A stretch of DNA of 64,000 nt from the human T2T-CHM13v2.0 reference genome, Homo sapiens: NCBI RefSeq assembly GCF_009914755.1, contig NC_060935.1; one strand, 5' to 3'. Below, one piece after another: positions 48,440 through 58,928 of this stretch (positions are counted from its first letter, which is position 1; the number at the start of each line of letters is the position of its first letter). Both the position numbers and the translations under genes were made by a program. The notes under the pieces are model-generated. The model did not search any database. It was not told where the DNA came from and was given only the letters and a program-made list of their open reading frames with translations.

Positions 48440-50083
<1,644 letters not shown>

Positions 50084-50297
50084 TTAAGGTGCCTCCTAGT
50101 GATATGATTCAGCACAATATAATGCACTGTTACTTCACATTTGGGAATTTATTCACATAAAATCCTAAAAGAAATTTAATCAGAGTTGAAAATACTAGCA
50201 TGGTTAATTTTTTTTTCTTTTGAACAGGCAATGTAGAAAGACGAAAATGTGTGCTAGCATGAAAATTGTATTTGACCCTCTTTTCCTTTGCTTATAG

Positions 50298-50387
50298 GAA
50301 GACAGCGCTTCTTGTGAGTCAAACAAAGAGAAGAGGCGAGTAAAAAAAAAGGTTTCTTCTGGAGGGGTGTTTGTGAGAAGGTACTAA
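50298..50387 (+). CDS. ANKRD42: ANKRD42 terminal coding exon (EDSASCESNKEKRRVKKKVSSGGVFVRRY*)
   Basis: Pyrimidine tract + cttatAG acceptor; phase 0 matches the donor at 42548; TAA at 50385-50387; ATTAAA at 50430 and 50523 downstream. Confidence 0.82.
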   Translation, partial: EDSASCESNKEKRRVKKKVSSGGVFVRRY

Positions 50388-50931
50388 TCAGTGAAATAAC
50401 TAAATTGACCTGCTAGATTTTTCTCTTTCATTAAAAAAATTGATATAAATGTGAGTCTATACAAACTATCTCAGAATTACTCTGATATGCTTCTGTTCCA
50501 ATTCTGATGGCAGAAATGTTATATTAAAGAGATTTAGAGATTTTTTAAATGACACGGACTCAGTTGTGCACCTTCTCCCGATATTCTTCTTATATATCTC
50601 TACACAGGCAAGTCAAGAGATTTATGAGTAATTAATTTTACAAGTATTCACATAAGCTTTAAAATATTAGCTGGTATAGTAATCAAAAGAAATCTAGTTC
50701 TAGATATTAAAAATTATTAAAAATTCAATTATGGTTCCACAATAGAATTATATTTCTTTCACTTTCTAGAGAGTACCTTTCACTTCTAGTGTGGATATGT
50801 TTAAAAAAATTTTTTTTCAAATGGCGTAACTGCAAGCTTTTTAAGAATATAGAGAAGAGGCAGATTGGACAGGATAAGAAACACTTGGCTTTATTTTTTC
50901 CTCTTTTTCTCCTTGATCTTAAAGATTAGTA

Positions 50932-51919
50932 GTGCTTGGCCAACTAAAAAACAACTATGGCTTTTCAGTTCAGTTCTGACTTCAATTCCCTCTTTTTTCC
51001 TACCCCCCTCTCTTTTCTCTTCTTTTCCCTCCATGAGCTAGCAAAGATTTATAACTCTTGGGTCCAGCTGTGTAGCTCTTGTCTCCCCCTGAAGATCTGT
51101 CACTGGTTTTGGGCTTCCCTGGCAGCAGCCATCTCACCATTCCATAGACTGCCCACCCTTTGGACCCTTGCATGTACTTCATGTGGACGCTAAAGTCATT
51201 TTGACATGGTATCATCAGAACTAGTTTGCTGTGACAAGAGTGCATTTGATTGCTGAAACCAGTTCAGCAGGTTAAGGGTCTGTAAACAAGTGTTAAAAAA
51301 TGAACTTTGGCTTCCAAGGTTAATCCCAGCTCTGCATTGTTGTGTAATCCTAGGCACAACTACTTAATCTCTTTATATAAAATATACCTACCTCATATGG
51401 CTGTCATTGGGAGAATTAAGAGGTAGTAGAGGACTTGGAACAGATCTTATACAAAGTGCCCAATAAATGTTGACAACTGTTATTACTATAGATTGAAAGC
51501 CACAGAAGAACTAAAAATAGTGAATATAAGGGTTATTAAAAGGATAGGTGAGTCATTTTTTAACACTTGCTTACAGACCCTTAGCCAGCTGAACTGGTTT
51601 CAGCAATCAAATGCACTCTTGTCAGGGCAAACTAGTTCTGATACTAGGTCAAAATGGCTTTAGTGTCCATGTGAGATAGATGCAAGGGTCCAGAGGGTGG
51701 GAAGTCTGGGGTATGGTGAGAGGGCTCCTGCCAGGGAAGCCCAAAACCAGCGACAGATCTTCAGGGGGAGACAGGAGCCACAGAGCTGGCTCCAAGAGAG
51801 TCATAATTCTTTGCTAGCTGGAGGGAAAAGAAGAGAAAATAGAGGCAAGTAGGAAAAAAGAGGGAATTGAAGTCAGAACTGAACTGAAAGCCATAGTTGT
51901 TTTTTGGTCAGCAAAGCAC
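50932..51919. repeat. Long inverted repeat: arms 50932-51303 and 51553-51919, ~250-bp loop
   Basis: Hand alignment of the left-arm reverse complement to the right arm: ~37 substitutions and 4 small indels over ~365 bp. Confidence 0.95.
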
Positions 51920-52089
51920 ATTTATTGGGCACTTTGTGTGAGATTTGTGCCAAGCCCTTAACTATCTCTTAATTCTCACAAGAGCCATATAAAGTAGGTA
52001 TATTTTATAGAGAAAGTAGTTGTGCCGAGGATTATATAATGCTGATCTGGGATTCCAACCTTGGCAGCAAAAGTCTGCATTCTCTTAAC
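51296..52089. repeat. Second inverted pair (MIR-derived): 51296-51470 and 51918-52089
   Basis: acaaagtgcccaataaatgt vs acatttattgggcactttgt; aaaatatacctac vs gtaggtatatttt; ggcacaactactt vs aagtagttgtgcc; roughly 80% by eye. Confidence 0.88.
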
Positions 52090-52287
52090 CATTACTGGGA
52101 TTTCAAAACCATTTATCTCCCCTTCTGGGACTACAGACAGCCTTACTTTTCCCCTCTAACTTGATGCTAAAGTTAATCCCAACCCTGGAAATAGTTTGTT
52201 GTACTTGCTCCAGTTTTCTCTAATTTCTTCCTGTACCAGTGAGGTAGAAAACACCAGAATAGTGTTGTAATAAAAGCATACACACCC

Positions 52288-52728
52288 TGTGGCAGAGGTT
52301 CCCTGGTTGTCCTCCAAAATCCATTCTCCCTTCTTCTGTAGTGGGAAGGATTTATGTGGTCTGTGGCCGCGCAGGATAAGAACTAACTTCCCAGCTTGCC
52401 TTTGCAGCCAAGAGACCAAGTTGTGTTCAGAAGGATGTGAGCAAAAATGTTACGTAAAACCTTAGGGTCATGGCTATAATGCCACCTCTTGCTCTTTTCT
52501 TCTTCTGGAATGTGGATGTGGTGGTGAGTCAGCCACTGGACCTTGTGAATGAGGGCAACACCAGGATGGCAGAGCAGTAAAATAAGGAGCAAGGGCCCTG
52601 ACACCATGGAGCTGACATATTAGCCCTAGAATGCTTACATTGGACTGTAAGAGAGAAATAAACCTAATCTTATTTAAGCCACTGCTATTCTGGATCTTGT
52701 TACAGCAGCTAAATTAAAATTATAATAC
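52288..52728 (+). mobile_element. Old MaLR LTR (MLT1 family)
   Basis: tgtggcag start; gagagaaataaacc..ttatttaagccactg...ttgttacagcagc...aataca end. Confidence 0.6.
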
Positions 52729-54112
52729 AATTCCCAAATTGTGTATATTTATTCATAAATCATATACCTATATTATTGACACATTTAGGTTAATGAAACA
52801 AAAAAAAAAGGTTATTAAAGAGATTTAAGTTATTTTGTTCCTATGACTTAGTAGATTGTCCATCTCATGAGAAAGAGTACTCAGGTTGAACCCTACTAGT
52901 ATATTGAGTGACAGCATGAGAGGGTGAGATTTGGAGTTAAAGACTTGAGTCCCTGTGACTTACTTGCTGGGGGACTGTGGACAAGTTACTTCACTTGGCT
53001 AAACTTGTTTCTTCAGCTGTAAAATGAGGATACCATCTACCTAAGAGGAGAGCTGTGAAAATAGGTGAGCACATATATGTTATTTAGCATATTTGCCCTC
53101 ATATAGTCAATGATAGCTATTTTTTTTCAAAATAGCAATCAGTAGTTTCAGTGATAATGACTACAGCCTTTCCCACTGCCCTTTTTTTAAATATTAAAAA
53201 ATACTTAAAAAATAAACAAGTGTTACATATCCAAATTCTTCAAGTTTGACAACATTATAAGCTTTTAATTGTTTTTCCAATAGGTGAGGGTTTTTCCTGA
53301 CTCTTGCCAAGTCCTTACATACTCTTGCCTGGCCTATTTTGTCACCAAAGCAGTATGGATAGGCAGGTTAGGATCTACACTGTGGCTATAAACATGGTGA
53401 AAGTAGCTAATCCTTGTGGAGGCTTCTTACCACTCATAGAAAATGCCTAAAAGGTGTATTACGCTCACTCAGTATGAATGCAGTATTTTCAGCATACCCA
53501 TAATTAAATATTTAAAATATTAAAAAGTTTGGATTAAGGTCAACTGAGATTTATGAGTATCATTTATTCCACAGGCGTTTAACAAGTACCTCACATGTGT
53601 CTAGAGGCCTTCTGAGAACTTGTAGTTTAGTGTAGGAAAAAGATACGTATAATTGCTGTTTCATAGTGAAGTGCAAGTGCTGGAATAGAGGTATAGTTTT
53701 AAGGCATATAGAAACACAATCCTCTCATCCTTATTTCATATATTTCCATCACTGAAACAAAAATTTACCTGAACCCCAGAACCACCATCAAAATGAAGTT
53801 TCATGGAAAGGATATAGGATCTAAAAGTAATGGGGACAGGGTATGGTATGCATATTTCTATTCTTCTGTTATTGGATACAAAGCACTTTGTTTGCTAAAC
53901 CCCTACAATGAGAAAGAACGCAGATCTATTTAATATTTAGTGGCTGTATAACCTGGGAATAAGTATATTTATTTGTTGGGGCTTGAGAAGGTCCAATAAA
54001 TGGCATACCTCCTTTCCATTCTGGGTTGTGAATATAACTAAGATGAAGAATGAATAAACTAATATAGAGGCCTAAAAAACACCTTTATTTGCTGATAAAA
54101 CTATTGGAGAAG

Positions 54113-54280
54113 TTTTTTTTTAGGAGACAGGGTCTCATGTGTTGCCAGGCTGGAGTGCAGTGACTATTTATAGGTATGATCATGGTACACTTTAGCCTTG
54201 ATGAACTCCTTGGCTCAAGCAATCCTGCTGCCGCAGCCTCCCAAGCAGCTAGGACTATAGATGTGTGCCACTGTGCTCAG
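54113..54280 (-). mobile_element. Alu monomer (FRAM/FAM-like)
   Basis: Degenerate antisense monomer. Confidence 0.7.
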
Positions 54281-55546
54281 CAAGAGAATATGGGTTTCAT
54301 CTTAAGGCCAGTAAGCTTCTTATCACTGAACTCTAGAACTGGACAGATTTACCCTGTCTCAAGCATTGCTCTACTGGGCCAGGCCTCATCCTGCAGAGGC
54401 AGAGCCTGATCCCATAGAAGCAGAACAGAATGAATGTCTCTTCAGATGGGCTGGTCCCAAACAGGAGTGGGGAGGAAGTGGGCTAATTGCACCTTGTTTC
54501 TCCTTCCAGATTTACAATTGGGCAAGTCACTTTACCTAGGGCAGAGTGGATAAGGGGATGAAGAGTGACGACAGTGTTATGCTACTGGAGCTTCCTTCAC
54601 ATGGAGGAAAGATGCATTCCCTCTTAATATTTTAGAATATTTTAAATCTTAACAAACCAATAATTTACTTGTTTATGTCACTCTCCTTAAGATTGTCAAT
54701 TCAATGAGAATGAAACCATGTTCATCTCTGTGCACACAGGGACTAGCATGCTGTTTGGCATATAGCAGGCAGTCATATTGGTTAACTGAACAAATGCAGT
54801 ATACTTTGTTACAGTGGACTTTAATATATATGGTAACTTATTAATTGACTCAGTGAAAATTAATCTATAATATACTAAGAACTCTCTTAGGCAATAGAGA
54901 TAAAAATGAATCAGAATGTAACAGGATAATGTCAAGGTTTTTCTTTTGAAAACAAACCAGCAGTTAGATTTTTGAGGAAAATATAGTTGGAAAGCCTGAC
55001 TCTCACTCACTGGACCATATGGACCAATCTCTTGACTGCTCTATACTGCAGATTCCCTGTTTATAGCTAAACAAATGACAAGGCTATTTTGAATAATGAT
55101 TGTCAAACTTTTATAGCTATTACCAAGGCATTATGAACTCAAAATGTTTACTTTCTGGTCTTGTCTTCTTGATCTGGGTAAGACTGAAGAACTAAGATGA
55201 AAAGGATATTTTAAAATTTCTTTGAAATTACATATGATTTACTAATAGATATTACTTTGTAAGAAAAAATATATCTAATAACAAAACAAAATACGAATTT
55301 AAATTTTCCTATGAGTTTCTTGAGAGTAGGTACTAGATATCAATGTTTGCTGAATTGAAGTCATTAAGAAAAGCTTTGTTTTATGTAATAAATTTAAGAT
55401 GGGTTAACTTAAACTACATTAAGAAGCAGGGATAAACTGGTTTTTGAGTATCAAATATTTAAAAAATACATGTAATAATCAGAGCTCAATATTTAGCAAC
55501 TCTACAGATTTCATATTAAGTGTTGTAATTTGCACTAAAGCACACA

Positions 55547-55892
<346 letters not shown>

Positions 55893-56363
55893 TGAAAACC
55901 CACACAACTTTGTTGTAATAATCTTTCATTTTATAGAAAAATGTAATTATGCAATGGTTATCAGGAAAGTTAATTCAGTAATAAATATGTAGGCTAGGGA
56001 ATGGTTTACAAATATTCAACCAATACCCACAAAATCCTGTATGATTTACACAACTGTTCAAGCAAACATAAGAAAACTCTGGTTCAATTTCTATTAACTA
56101 TCAAAAGGACAAAATGCTCTTCTATCTCAAACCAGGTCTGAGTGACAGCTTTTCAATATAATAAAGACACACACCTGCACTCACACACACACAATAAAGA
56201 CACAGTATCTCTTCTCATTCTAAAACACTTCCTCTTTTAGTCCGTATACACTTCGAATAATCTTGTGTAGTAAATTTTTGCTGCAACTGACAATGTTCAA
56301 AGTAAATCTCTCCCGGTTTGGTGTTCTAAGAAGCCAACAGCCACAGCAGGATGAGCATTAATA

Positions 56364-56419
56364 CTACTTCCAGAATCTATAAAATCCCAATGCTATTGCC
56401 AGGCAAGTAAACACCGAAG
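56364..56419 (-). CDS. CCDC90B: CCDC90B terminal coding exon ((A)SVFTCLAIALGFYRFWK*), C-terminal transmembrane anchor
   Basis: Minus-strand ttttcacAG acceptor; phase 1 matches the previous exon; TAG at 56366-56364; hydrophobic helix typical of CCDC90B/MCUR1. Confidence 0.93.
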
Positions 56420-58928
56420 CTGTGAAAAGAAGAAACTGTGTTATAGGTCTTGTATTTGTAATTATTTTGCAGAGATAAAGAGAATAATGTTATCTTTAAG
56501 TGAAGAGCAAAAAACAGGAAATCCAACCAATTTTCTATCCTATGTTTTTTATTCCCTAGACAATTAAGTATGAAAGACATTCTTAAGGGCAGCCTTAATG
56601 CCTAATTCTTCTTAAAAGCACCTGTATATTAAAATGTAAATTATGTCATTTAGAAACCTATAACCTGTATTTAAAATCATTAACGCTAGCATTATTGACT
56701 ACTTTAAATAATTATAAGCTCTAATTTCAGATCTCATGATAAATGAAATCTTTCTTATATTAAAAAATTACGTAGTTAGGCTAGTAAAATATACATATAT
56801 CTGTGAGAAGAGAATTTTAATTGCCTTTTCAGTACATTTTTAAATAATTTCTCATAATTCTTAATAAAATTTTAATAAAAACTCTTTAAACTCAATGAGG
56901 TAGAAGAAAAGGCAGAAAAAGCATTAGGTTTTTAAAATAGTTAATATACTACCTGTACTTTAGCTTACATCATTTTGGATAAAAAAAAATTCAGTTTTCC
57001 CAGCTTTTAGAAGGTAAGTCTGAGTGAGGCCTTTAGGGACTCCCTAGTCTCCAGTTTGTTTAAAACACCGATGAATGAATTTTTAAAAACAGACAAGTGA
57101 GAGATGAATGGAAAACTTTTATGAATAAAGACACAAGAAATTAGCCTTTCAAAGTAAAGTTATTCATAATGTATAAACCCATTTGTACACCACCCCATTT
57201 GATCCTACTACTTACTGAAACTTGGTTAATGATAAGATCATTTTCTCAGTTTTAAGAAATGGGATTAGGCATCTCTAAGAAATATAGAGAAGTAATAACA
57301 CTAAGAGTTTCTTGTCTTACAGCCACTGGGCAATTATATATTCTCCCATTTGATCCTGCTACTATTTGCTGTGTGTCAAGTACTATGCTACTATGCTGAG
57401 CAATTACACACACTACTTTATTTAACCATGAGATTGGTGGTATTATCCCCATTGTACAGATGAGGTAATACACCCAGTTACATCGCTAGCAAACAGTGGA
57501 GCCGGGATTTAAGACTAAGTGTACTTGACTCCAAAGCCATTTTTTTTCTCTTAATAAAAAAACACACACACAAAATTTGTGATCCTTATTATATACTGTG
57601 ACACTTGAAAGACTCAATCTGTCATTTATTTGAGTCACATAGTGCTATCTAAGTGGTTACATCCTCTGCTGATTCAACAGCTGATAAATTAAGTTTTAGA
57701 TAACCAAATGAACACTTATTGTGAGGTGAAGTATACTCTACTTCAGTAGAGTATACAATCGTTACTGCATTTAAGTTTCTCTCTCATGTCTTGCTGCTGT
57801 TATTTCAGCTTTTATTTCTCATGGCTGTTGTTGCAGTAACAACAACAATTGGAGCCATCTCCAATTTCTTTTAAGTTTGCTGTTTATCCTCTATACCCTG
57901 TCTAGGGAGACATTCTACATATATGTAAAATGCTTAGGTGAGCATATGCCTGGTACATTTTAAGCACTCTGTAAACATTAGCTTTCATTATTTATCTGCC
58001 ACGAACAAAATCTGCCACATTATCTACATAGATTAAATGGAAATTGCCATTATTCCTTGGTGGCAGTGTTCTGGGTCAAAAGGTGGCGTCTGACCCACGA
58101 TGAACCATTCAGACTCCTTTCTGAGGATTTTAAAAATTGGAACTAAGGAAAGAGGGCAATCTCTCCTGATTAGTGAAAGTGGAATGATAAGAGTCTAGGT
58201 GGTAATGTTTCCAACCTATGGAGAAAGCTGGTATGAGAAATTGAGGCACACAGTCACAGATTTAAAGAGTAAGTTCTGATTCCAATTATGCTTGTAGGTA
58301 GGCTATTTTACTTGTGCCCCGTCCACGGTTCAGCTGATGGCTGGGGGCTCCATCTTCAACCCTGCTGGCACCTCAACATCAGTAGTGACTGCCCAGAAAA
58401 TGACTAAGAGTATAAATCGGCAGTTTTCTTTTAGACAGCAATTTGTTAATATCAAAAATCTTAAATGTGCATATCTTTTTGACCCCAAATTTTAAATGTA
58501 CATAGCAAGTTGTTATATAGAAATACTAGCACAGGGCCACAAAGATATGTGTGTGTGTATGTGTATTTACTCAAACGTTAACACATATATATGGCTGTTC
58601 AATACAGTATTGTCCTTAATAATAAAAAACTGAAGGGAGAATGCCTGTTAATAAAGGACTGGATACATAAATTATGGCATTTTCATATAGGGAATACTGT
58701 GCTTTCTAATAAAAAGATGTCTGTGTGGAAAGAAATAGGACATTTGGTTAAACTTTAAAAAGTTGTAGACTATAAAAAATACGTGATCTAATTATTTTTA
58801 AGAAGTATATAAGATGTTTATATACAGAAGAAAAAGCCTAGAAAATGTTTACTACTAATAGTAAATACACACGGGGAGGGGCTTTCACTTTTACGGCTTT
58901 TGAATTCTATGAATAATTTATAATGAAA

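What the first reader, a model, noticed from the sequence alone, without database searches (positions are those of the whole stretch)
50932..51919. ~370-bp near-perfect inverted repeat of apparently unique sequence between the convergent 3' ends of ANKRD42 and CCDC90B
Seen: 50932-51303 is the reverse complement of 51553-51919 at ~88-90% (hand count ~37 substitutions, 4 indels). It includes perfect runs of 37 nt (GCTGAACTGGTTTCAGCAATCAAATGCACTCTTGTCA) and ~40 nt (GTAGGAAAAAAGAGGGAATTGAAGTCAGAACTGAACTGAAA). I do not recognise the arms as Alu, L1 or a known MER. It starts ~545 nt after the ANKRD42 stop. Established: long intramolecular dsRNA is a substrate for ADAR, Dicer (hairpin endo-siRNA), Staufen, PKR and MDA5, and most human examples are inverted Alus. 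Inference: an extended ANKRD42 3' UTR or CCDC90B read-through would fold a ~365-bp non-Alu hairpin that could yield endo-siRNAs or control retention and stability of either transcript. Caveat: transitions compatible with G-U pairing are ~13 on + versus ~9 on -, so there is no clear strand bias.
Basis: partly seen in the sequence, partly recalled or inferred. Interest (0 to 1): 0.85.

Follow-up and report, generated by a model that had tools for sequence, protein, structure and literature searches.

The report
Small inversion flanked by inverted duplications
The 370-base inverted repeat is real and is not a recognisable transposon, but it looks like the scar of one small primate-age DNA rearrangement inside an ANKRD42 intron, and nothing shows that the RNA hairpin it could form has a function.

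Summary
50932-51303 is the reverse complement of 51553-51919: 328 of 374 aligned columns are identical, with 37 substitutions and 4 indels. In the whole T2T genome each arm matches only itself and the other arm.

A MIR-like SINE at 51304-51470 is repeated in reverse at 51918-52074, with 19 mismatches in 155 sites. Both copies descend from one old SINE insertion: they share 28 derived substitutions and 51 deleted columns.

The layout is A, B, spacer, rcA, rcB. [quoted passage not shown] This matches the staggered-break model and the four-point template switch type 3-1-4-2. Both pairs are equally diverged (Fisher p = 0.54), and K2P of 0.11 puts the event roughly 25-55 Myr ago.

The structure lies in the annotated ANKRD42 intron 50381-54509, not in any exon. 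Either strand would fold into a very stable hairpin (-640 and -626 kcal/mol). The substitutions show no bias towards keeping pairs, no Rfam family matches, and I found nothing in print. It is most likely a neutral by-product and at most an ADAR substrate. Outgroup genomes, Dfam and RNA data were not available.

The parts
50932..51303 (+). Left arm A (segment P in its original orientation). It is sequence found nowhere else in the genome except in the other arm. It contains a ~55-nt polypyrimidine tract at about 50980-51033.
   Evidence: 328 of 374 columns identical to the right arm; only the two arms match in the genome.
51304..51470 (+). B: body of a MIR-like tRNA-derived SINE in + orientation. 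In the favoured model it is the inverted copy of segment S. It ends at the motif AATAAATGT.
   Evidence: 19 mismatches in 155 sites versus 51918-52074. (its 24-mer finds 27 genomic sites against 2 for the reversed control). (it aligns to the consensus of 20 genomic family copies).
51471..51552 (+). T: 82-nt single-copy spacer. Its first ~15-20 nt continue the SINE tail. In the favoured model it is the ancestral spacer Q, now inverted.
   Evidence: no second copy in the window; no similarity to the flanks or arm starts above shuffles; the tail aligns to the family consensus.
51553..51919 (-). Right arm A' (reverse-complement copy of P).
51918..52089 (-). B*: the same SINE in - orientation (segment S), cut at AATAAATGT where it abuts A'. 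Similarity to B is high for 51918-52074 and weak, with indels, for 52075-52089.
   Evidence: apart from B itself, the only genomic match to B: 80%, E = 3.6e-33. (28 shared derived substitutions, 51 shared deleted columns)..
51303..51304 (.). Junction J1. A/A' homology ends at 51303 and high-identity B/B* homology starts at 51304. Upstream of it there is only a short imperfect similarity between the end of A and the sequence beside B*.
   Evidence: the upstream similarity is reached by 64 of 2000 shuffles.
51918..51919 (.). Junction J2. The end of A' and the start of B* overlap by 2 nt (AC), a microhomology. No other bases lie between them.
   Evidence: I5 ends at 51919, I4 starts at 51918; sequence.
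50381..54509 (+). Context: the annotated ANKRD42 intron that contains the whole structure. The donor is GT at 50381 and the acceptor is CAG before 54510. The alternative terminal exon ends at 50552, 380 nt before the left arm.
   Evidence: The hub's gene table; splice sites read.
51462..51467 (+). AATAAA hexamer from the SINE, lying between the arms on the + strand. Its twin on the - strand (51926 down to 51921) lies upstream of both arms for a - strand transcript.
   Evidence: Read from the sequence. Use as a poly(A) signal was not tested.

Best explanation
The repeat is the footprint of one local rearrangement of ordinary intronic DNA, not a transposon and not a selected RNA element.

Origin (inferred). 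The ancestral sequence read: left flank, A, an 82-nt spacer, a MIR-like SINE in minus orientation, right flank. A single event inverted the block A-spacer-SINE and left an extra copy of each of its ends in place. That gives A | SINE(+) spacer(inverted) rcA | SINE(-), which is the present 50932-52089. Two mechanisms would produce it. One is a replication template switch that copied 616 nt (51304-51919) from the opposite strand and returned. The other is two pairs of staggered breaks, filled in and rejoined.

Shown. The long A/rcA inverted repeat is a by-product of this event, and so is the interlocked SINE/SINE pair. Both pairs have since decayed at the same rate, about 10-12% (roughly 25-55 Myr at 1.0-2.2e-9 per site per year), with no bias towards keeping base pairs.

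Consequence (inferred). The structure sits in an ANKRD42 intron, so it is transcribed only as pre-mRNA or read-through RNA. There it would fold into a ~365-bp imperfect duplex. The expected fate of such nuclear dsRNA in human cells is promiscuous A-to-I editing by ADAR and decay with the intron, as for inverted Alu pairs. No selected function is indicated.
For: (1) Topology. There are two crossed inverted pairs, A 50932-51303 with 51553-51919 and B 51304-51470 with 51918-52074. This is P rcS rcQ rcP S, the product expected from an ancestral P Q S.
(2) Junctions. The homology blocks abut without filler. A/A' ends at 51303 and B/B* starts at 51304. A' ends at 51919 and B* starts at 51918, a 2-nt overlap.
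(3) Boundaries. Six flank comparisons found no homology beyond the blocks. Shuffles reached the observed score in 245, 144, 152, 170, 54 and 224 of 300 trials.
(4) Same age. A has 37 mismatches in 365 sites and B has 19 in 155 (Fisher p = 0.54). K2P is 0.110 and 0.134.
(5) One SINE insertion. Against a consensus of 20 genomic family copies, B and B* share 28 derived substitutions and 51 deleted columns. Unique changes number 6 (B) and 15 (B*), with 5 sites where all three differ. Genome-wide, B matches only itself and B*.
(6) A is not a detectable repeat family. Whole-arm searches return 2 of 2 candidates, both local. The 37-mer gives 2 hits against 0 for the control. The two 24-mers give 3 against 0 and 5 against 1. 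The 4 extra sites score at most 11.2 bits with the arm model, against 364 and 354 bits for the arms. The same probe design on the SINE gives 27 against 2.
(7) Known mechanisms give this topology. Inverted duplications of non-repetitive sequence occur at both breakpoints of Drosophila inversions, with median size 321 bp (PMC1885836, passages read). [quoted passage not shown]
(8) Neutral decay. Transitions to transversions are 22:15, and G-U-compatible changes are 13 versus 9.
(9) Intronic position (hub table) and a strong predicted fold on both strands.
Against: No outgroup genome could be consulted, so the ancestral order (A-spacer-SINE(-)) is inferred only from parsimony.

A permuted-copy origin gives the same present-day sequence. 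The internal discriminator, which copy carries the true SINE head, was inconclusive. The end of A resembles the family head weakly (shuffles reach it in 182 of 3000 trials, and in 106 of 3000 for the A' tail). The sequence beside B* does no better under the same anchored test (799 of 3000), although it has the better ungapped match by eye.

Published four-point template-switch events are tens of bases long, so this one would be much longer.

The repeat-family tests are blind to small or very old families. The genome BLAST-type search also failed to find other MIR copies, and neither model finds any diverged copy in the 64-kb window. Dfam/RepeatMasker was not available.

Neutrality is argued from two copies only. 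Editing, small RNAs and expression were not examined, so a function is not excluded.
Confidence: 0.6

Rival explanations
1. Multi-step permuted copy. The left side (A followed by a plus-orientation SINE and its tail) is ancestral. The 539-bp segment 50932-51470 was circularised or tandemly duplicated, joining the SINE's AATAAATGT to the start of A. It was then opened near 51303/51304 and inserted in reverse orientation 82 bp downstream, or copied there by two successive template switches.
For: The right-hand block read on the minus strand is B then A, a circular permutation of the left-hand A then B. The last ~17-28 nt of A look weakly like a SINE head in register with B (shuffles reach it in 182 of 3000 and 106 of 3000 trials). 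That would make A-B an intact old junction. B carries the SINE tail and B* does not.
Against: It needs three new junctions (51552|51553, 51918/51919, ~52074-52093) and at least two steps, where one event with two junctions suffices. The drop of B/B* identity from 88% to about 60% exactly at the A/A' boundary has no special reason if the copy had terminal redundancy. The head-likeness tests are marginal.
Confidence: 0.22
2. The arms are the long terminal inverted repeats of an old DNA transposon, or two copies of an unrecognised ancient repeat. The hairpin would then be a transposon relic like many MER elements.
For: Many human non-autonomous DNA transposons are palindromic (recalled knowledge, not from a call). 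My genome searches are insensitive to families at about 70% identity, since the MIR control also found no other copies. One of the four extra 24-mer sites extends weakly (L010, 11.2 bits over model 17-142).
Against: Only the two arms match genome-wide. Three probes give 0, 1 and 3 extra near-matches against 0, 0 and 1 in the controls, while a SINE probe gives 25 extra against 2. There is no target-site duplication: the 8 nt outside the arms are GATTAGTA and ATTTATTG. The right arm abuts, to the base, a duplicate of the SINE that follows the left arm, which a transposon insertion does not explain. The arms differ by only 10%, far less than is usual for ancient families (recalled knowledge). In the hub's list of the 20 longest stretches that NCBI masked as repeats (all 303 nt or more), none lies between 49190 and 55538.
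Confidence: 0.05
3. The A/A' duplex is used: as a source of endo-siRNAs or a young miRNA, or as an ADAR/Staufen/PKR/MDA5-binding dsRNA that tunes ANKRD42 isoform choice or CCDC90B read-through. It would be maintained by selection, whatever its origin.
For: The predicted stem is very stable on both strands (-640.1 and -626.0 kcal/mol). It lies in a transcribed intron (hub table). Template-switch-born hairpins in introns have given rise to primate miRNAs (PMC10710096, abstract read).
Against: There is no Rfam family over the arms. No pairing-preserving bias appears in the 37 substitutions. The stem is no better conserved than the non-stem SINE pair. It is in no annotated exon. AATAAA hexamers lie between the arms on the + strand and ahead of both arms on the - strand, which could stop read-through RNAs before the hairpin is complete. 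No paper links the locus to dsRNA, editing or small RNAs (2, 4 and 6 papers listed, none relevant by title or abstract start; I read the matching passages of one, PMC9504269, and it concerns a circRNA).
Confidence: 0.07

Closest known systems
Inversions flanked by inverted duplications of both breakpoint regions (staggered-break model; Ranz et al. 2007, PMC1885836, passages read)
   Same: The topology is P rcS rcQ rcP S, built from ancestrally non-repetitive sequence duplicated in inverted orientation at both ends. The duplication sizes (372 and ~170 nt) lie within their range (46 bp to 1.9 kb, median 321 bp). The identity of ~88% happens to equal their mean.
   Different: Their inversions are chromosomal, kilobases to megabases long, in Drosophila. 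Here the whole inverted block is 616 nt in a human intron, and the single-copy inverted part is only 82 nt. Almost the whole product is therefore inverted repeat. The ancestral state is not shown here.
Four-point template-switch mutation, type 3-1-4-2 (Loytynoja and Goldman 2017, PMC5453318, passages read; miRNA births by such events, PMC10710096, abstract read)
   Same: [quoted passage not shown] It makes a perfect hairpin in one step from unstructured sequence. The setting is intronic. The return junction shows microhomology.
   Different: Published events have copied fragments of tens of bases, and type 3-1-4-2 was 1% of them. Here the copied fragment would be 616 nt. No ancestral/derived pair of genomes was compared here.
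Inverted Alu pairs as intramolecular dsRNA and ADAR substrates (established knowledge, recalled; not from a call)
   Same: About 300-bp imperfect intramolecular duplexes in introns or UTRs, with arms a few hundred bases apart and roughly 85-90% paired. They are the typical substrates for promiscuous A-to-I editing.
   Different: Alu pairs arise from two independent SINE insertions and exist in many thousands. Here the main arms are single-copy sequence duplicated in place. The SINE present (MIR-like) forms the second, crossed pair and is one insertion duplicated.
Microinversions flanked by inverted repeats between human and chimpanzee (Potapova et al. 2022, PMC8755829, abstract read)
   Same: A small inverted segment bracketed by inverted repeats. 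Replication-based or MMBIR mechanisms are discussed there.
   Different: Those inversions are 17-33 nt, and their flanking repeats pre-exist and are thought to cause the inversion. Here the repeats are proposed to be produced by the event.

Membership tests
Inversion with inverted duplications / four-point template switch 3-1-4-2 | Two inverted-repeat pairs in crossed order: P ... rcP interleaved with rcS ... S | tested here: met
   A 50932-51303 / 51553-51919 and B 51304-51470 / 51918-52074.
Inversion with inverted duplications / four-point template switch 3-1-4-2 | Only two novel junctions, with homology blocks abutting directly (with or without microhomology) | tested here: met
   The blocks meet at 51303|51304 and at 51918-51919 (2-nt overlap). 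No homology lies beyond the blocks.
Inversion with inverted duplications / four-point template switch 3-1-4-2 | Both duplicated pairs are of the same age | tested here: met
   37 mismatches in 365 sites against 19 in 155, Fisher p = 0.54.
Inversion with inverted duplications / four-point template switch 3-1-4-2 | The central single-copy segment is inverted relative to the ancestral or outgroup sequence | not testable with these tools
   No non-human vertebrate genome is held. G000 'has no relatives here'.
DNA transposon or MITE with long terminal inverted repeats | Multiple dispersed copies in the genome | tested here: not met
   Only the two arms match. The probes give 0, 1 and 3 extra hits against 0, 0 and 1 in controls, and none extends. 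Sensitivity is limited: see the control.
DNA transposon or MITE with long terminal inverted repeats | Target-site duplication immediately outside the two arms | tested here: not met
   The flanks are GATTAGTA and ATTTATTG. The flank comparisons do not exceed shuffles.
Inverted pair of independent SINE insertions (Alu-type dsRNA) | Each arm is a separate insertion of an interspersed SINE | tested here: not met
   Arm A is single-copy. The SINE pair B/B* shares 28 derived substitutions and 51 deleted columns, so it is one insertion duplicated.
Known miRNA or other structured RNA family | Match to a curated covariance model at its gathering score | tested here: not met
   Rfam 15 over 49500-53500 at E up to 1 gives only mir-210 at 52663-52734, 23.9 bits against a gathering score of 50, outside the repeat.
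Endo-siRNA / hairpin-RNA locus | Small RNAs of 21-23 nt mapping to both arms, and a transcript covering both arms | not testable with these tools
   No expression data are held. The annotation places both arms in one intron (hub table). No relevant paper was found.
ADAR substrate (long intramolecular dsRNA) | A duplex of more than ~100 bp in a transcribed region | tested here: met
   The predicted stem runs the length of the arms on both strands and the position is intronic. Editing itself was not testable.

The most novel reading that the evidence does not exclude
A single replication template switch, more than ten times longer than those catalogued so far, created a ~370-bp perfect RNA hairpin from unique sequence inside a transcribed primate intron. 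That hairpin is now processed in ANKRD42 pre-mRNA, either hyper-edited by ADAR or diced into small RNAs. If so, this locus would be a non-transposon route to long endogenous dsRNA and a possible young regulatory RNA.
Probability: 0.08. Interest if true: 0.55.

Novelty: new member of a known kind. Interest (0 to 1): 0.3.

Why it matters
Nearly all long intramolecular dsRNA in human transcripts is attributed to inverted Alu pairs. This locus shows another source. A small local rearrangement can turn single-copy intronic DNA into a ~370-bp hairpin in one step, with a second interlocked repeat as the signature of the event.

If primate alignments confirm the ancestral order, it would be a clear and unusually large example of the inversion-with-inverted-duplications (template-switch) class in the human lineage. 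It would also be a datable one. It bears on how new hairpins arise, on annotation of non-Alu ADAR or MDA5 substrates, and on local instability, since recombination between the arms can flip the spacer.

As a functional element it has no support at present, so its weight is modest.

Tried and rejected
(1) The whole-genome similarity search as a repeat test proved blind to old families. The SINE segment B, which belongs to a dispersed family, also returned only itself and B*. The negative for A alone was therefore not accepted.

(2) Sequence-only models of both pairs (R1, R2) found only their own two copies in the 64-kb window at E up to 1. A pattern given as a reference is not accepted either.

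(3) Probes. The 37-mer with up to 3 mismatches found only the arms. The 4 extra sites from the two A 24-mers were fetched and scored. They showed the seed plus low-complexity extension only (best 11.2 bits), so I rejected them as copies.

(4) I looked for homology outside the four blocks: left flank versus B*, spacer versus the starts of A, the 3' part of A versus the right flank, and flank versus flank in both orientations. All were at shuffle level.

(5) I tried to decide which SINE copy has the true 5' head, which would separate the two origin models. The result was inconclusive.

(6) Simple fold-back duplication, inversion of a tandem copy, and recombination between the arms were worked through on paper. 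I rejected them because none yields the crossed order A B T rcA rcB.

(8) Papers. The ANKRD42 hits are on circANKRD42, non-AUG starts and the like, unrelated to this repeat.

(9) Protein, structure and complex tools were not used, because nothing here is coding.

Full report
**1. The observation**

The repeat finder tiles it with five collinear inverted segments of 23-160 nt at 86-94% (I1, I2, I3, I5, I8). A global alignment of 50932-51303 with the reverse complement of 51553-51919 has 374 columns: 328 identical, 37 substitutions (22 transitions, 15 transversions) and 4 indels covering 9 columns. The G-U-compatible mismatches are 13 for a + strand RNA and 9 for a - strand RNA (substitution table).

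The match is far beyond chance. The other arm is found at E = 1.6e-126 in a search of the whole 3.1-Gb assembly. The 988-nt stretch folds at -640.1 kcal/mol (+ strand) and -626.0 kcal/mol (- strand). Shuffles give -281 and -272, so the z-scores are -42.5 and -52.0, with 0 of 20 shuffles as stable in each case.

**2.

The repeat finder also reports three inverted segments (I4, I6, I7) that pair 51340-51470, inside the 'loop', with 51918-52039, just beyond the right arm. BLAST and pairwise alignment join them into one match of 51292-51470 with 52089-51918 at 80% over 184 columns. The high-identity part is 51304-51470 against 52074-51918: 155 aligned sites, 19 mismatches and 5 indels.

On the + strand the order is therefore:
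- A (50932-51303)
- B (51304-51470)
- T, an 82-nt single-copy spacer (51471-51552)
- rcA (51553-51919)
- rcB* (51918-52074, perhaps to 52089)

The two pairs are crossed, not nested, so this is not a simple fold-back palindrome. The blocks abut exactly. A/A' homology stops at 51303, where B/B* homology begins. A' ends at 51919 and B* begins at 51918, sharing 2 nt. Six comparisons looking for homology outside these blocks all stayed at the level of shuffled sequence: shuffles reached the observed score in 245, 144, 152, 170, 54 and 224 of 300 trials.

**3. What the pieces are**

B is a member of a dispersed family. A 24-mer from its core finds 27 sites in the genome with up to 3 mismatches, against 2 for the reversed control. 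I fetched 20 of the 25 non-local sites, taking the first 20 in list order, and aligned them. Their consensus has the layout I recall for the mammalian MIR SINE, including a tRNA-type B-box-like motif. The name is from recall; family membership is from the calls.

Against that consensus, B and B* share 28 derived substitutions and 51 deleted columns. B has 6 unique changes, B* has 15, and 5 sites differ in all three, over 132 comparable sites. One caveat applies: the 20 copies were chosen by likeness to B's 24-mer, which favours B within those 24 nt. The result stands regardless. B and B* are two copies of one old insertion, duplicated after about 70% of its history had passed: 10.5 to 13 changes per lineage after the split, against 28 before it. 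Genome-wide, B matches only itself and B*.

Arm A behaves as single-copy sequence.
- Either arm as query returns only the two arms (2 of 2 candidates).
- That search alone is not a fair test, because it also missed every other copy of the SINE family. I therefore used short probes with up to 3 mismatches.
- A 37-mer gave 2 hits against 0 for the control. Two 24-mers gave 3 against 0 and 5 against 1.
- I fetched the 4 extra sites. They score 11.2, 10.3, 6.5 and 3.8 bits with a sequence model of the arms, against 364 and 354 bits for the arms themselves. That is the seed plus a low-complexity extension.

A family of more than roughly a hundred copies at about 75% identity covering those probe sites would probably have shown. 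A small or older family would not. There is no target-site duplication outside the arms (GATTAGTA against ATTTATTG). In the hub's list of the 20 longest stretches that NCBI masked as repeats (all 303 nt or more), none lies between 49190 and 55538. Dfam/RepeatMasker was not available, so 'not a known transposon' is likely but not proven.

**4. How it arose**

Call the ancestral order P Q S. The present order is then P rcS rcQ rcP S, with P = A, S = the SINE in minus orientation and Q = the reverse complement of T. This is exactly what one event gives: the block P-Q-S is inverted while a copy of P stays at the left and a copy of S stays at the right.

Two published mechanisms yield this topology.
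- Two pairs of staggered breaks are filled in and rejoined. Ranz et al. proposed this for Drosophila inversions: 17 of 29 carry inverted duplications of non-repetitive sequence, six of them at both breakpoints, with a median size of 321 bp (PMC1885836, passages read).

Under the switch reading, synthesis reached the end of A (51303). It then jumped to the opposite strand beside the SINE head and copied 616 nt backwards (now 51304-51919). It returned at the SINE's AATAAATGT with a 2-nt microhomology. At the first jump there is a short imperfect similarity between the end of A and the sequence beside B* (reached by 64 of 2000 shuffles), the kind of homeology such switches use.

The two pairs have the same divergence: 37 mismatches in 365 sites against 19 in 155, Fisher p = 0.54. 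This fits one event. K2P distances of 0.110 and 0.134 put it about 25-55 Myr ago at 1.0-2.2e-9 substitutions per site per year (the rates are recalled values). That places it within anthropoid primates, if the arms have not been homogenised by gene conversion.

The main rival is a permuted copy. The segment 50932-51470 was circularised or tandemly duplicated, opened near 51303/51304, and inserted backwards 82 bp downstream. It gives the same sequence but needs three new junctions and at least two steps. I tried to separate the models by asking which SINE copy keeps the true 5' head. The end of A resembles the family head weakly (shuffles reach it in 182 of 3000 and 106 of 3000 trials). The sequence beside B* did not do better in the same anchored test (799 of 3000), although by eye it has the better ungapped match. 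This is inconclusive, and outgroup genomes would settle it at once. None is held here.

**5. What it does**

The hub's gene table puts the structure inside the ANKRD42 span. An alternative exon 50298-50380 has a GT donor, and the next annotated exon, 54510-58735, has a good acceptor. Both arms therefore lie in one intron. The alternative terminal exon ends at 50552, 380 nt upstream, and the CCDC90B 3' end at 53534 is 1.4 kb away. No annotated mature RNA contains either arm.

As pre-mRNA or read-through RNA, the arms would form a ~365-bp duplex at about 88% pairing. By established knowledge of ADAR this is an ordinary editing substrate, like the many inverted Alu pairs. That step is inference. 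AATAAA hexamers from the SINE copies lie between the arms on the + strand (51462-51467) and ahead of both arms on the - strand (51926 down to 51921). If used, they would end read-through RNAs before the hairpin is complete. This was not tested.

Nothing points to selection on the stem. The ratio of transitions to transversions is 22:15. G-U-compatible changes split 13 to 9. The stem pair has diverged as much as the SINE pair, which cannot belong to the same helix. Rfam finds no family on the arms. Searches for ANKRD42 with 'inverted repeat' (2 papers), with 'RNA editing' (4 papers), and for at least two of CCDC90B, ANKRD42 and dsRNA (6 papers) returned nothing on this locus. I read passages of one of these papers, which concerns a circRNA from other exons. 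Supplementary tables of editing catalogues were not searched and could still list sites here.

**6. Verdict**

The best reading is a neutral scar of one small inversion-with-duplications event in the primate lineage (confidence about 0.6). A multi-step permuted copy is the main rival (about 0.2). A transposon origin (about 0.05) and a selected RNA function (about 0.07) are unlikely.

It is a new member of a known kind. It is of modest interest, mainly as a large and datable example of how a long hairpin can be made from unique DNA in one step.

Noticed in passing
window 52663-52734 (+): Weak Rfam match to mir-210 (23.9 bits against a gathering score of 50, E = 0.023), just right of the RefSeq 'silencer' 52360-52654 and outside the repeat. 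Most likely chance.
   Followed up: no
window 50980-51033 (+) and its mirror 51819-51870: Each arm carries a ~55-nt polypyrimidine (left) or polypurine (right) tract. Such tracts can form triplex DNA. This tract also caused the low-complexity extensions seen when scoring unrelated loci with the arm model.
   Followed up: no
window 50585-50858: An AT-rich stretch with weak self-complementarity (61% over 284 columns, E = 1e-8 in the self-BLAST), between the alternative ANKRD42 terminal exon and the left arm. Probably compositional.
   Followed up: no
window 51918-52074 versus 51304-51470: After the duplication B* accumulated more unique substitutions than B (15 against 6). Part of this comes from choosing the outgroup copies by likeness to B. 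The rest is unexplained and not significant.
   Followed up: partly
window 54510-58735 (+) versus 53534-56419 (-): By the hub's table, the last exon of a long ANKRD42 isoform overlaps the CCDC90B 3' exon on the opposite strand for about 1.9 kb. This natural sense-antisense pair could form intermolecular dsRNA whatever the inverted repeat does.
   Followed up: no
window 52158-52235 (+): A weak (64%, E = 1.4) similarity to part of the SINE segment B in + orientation, just right of B*. It may be another old SINE fragment or noise.
   Followed up: no
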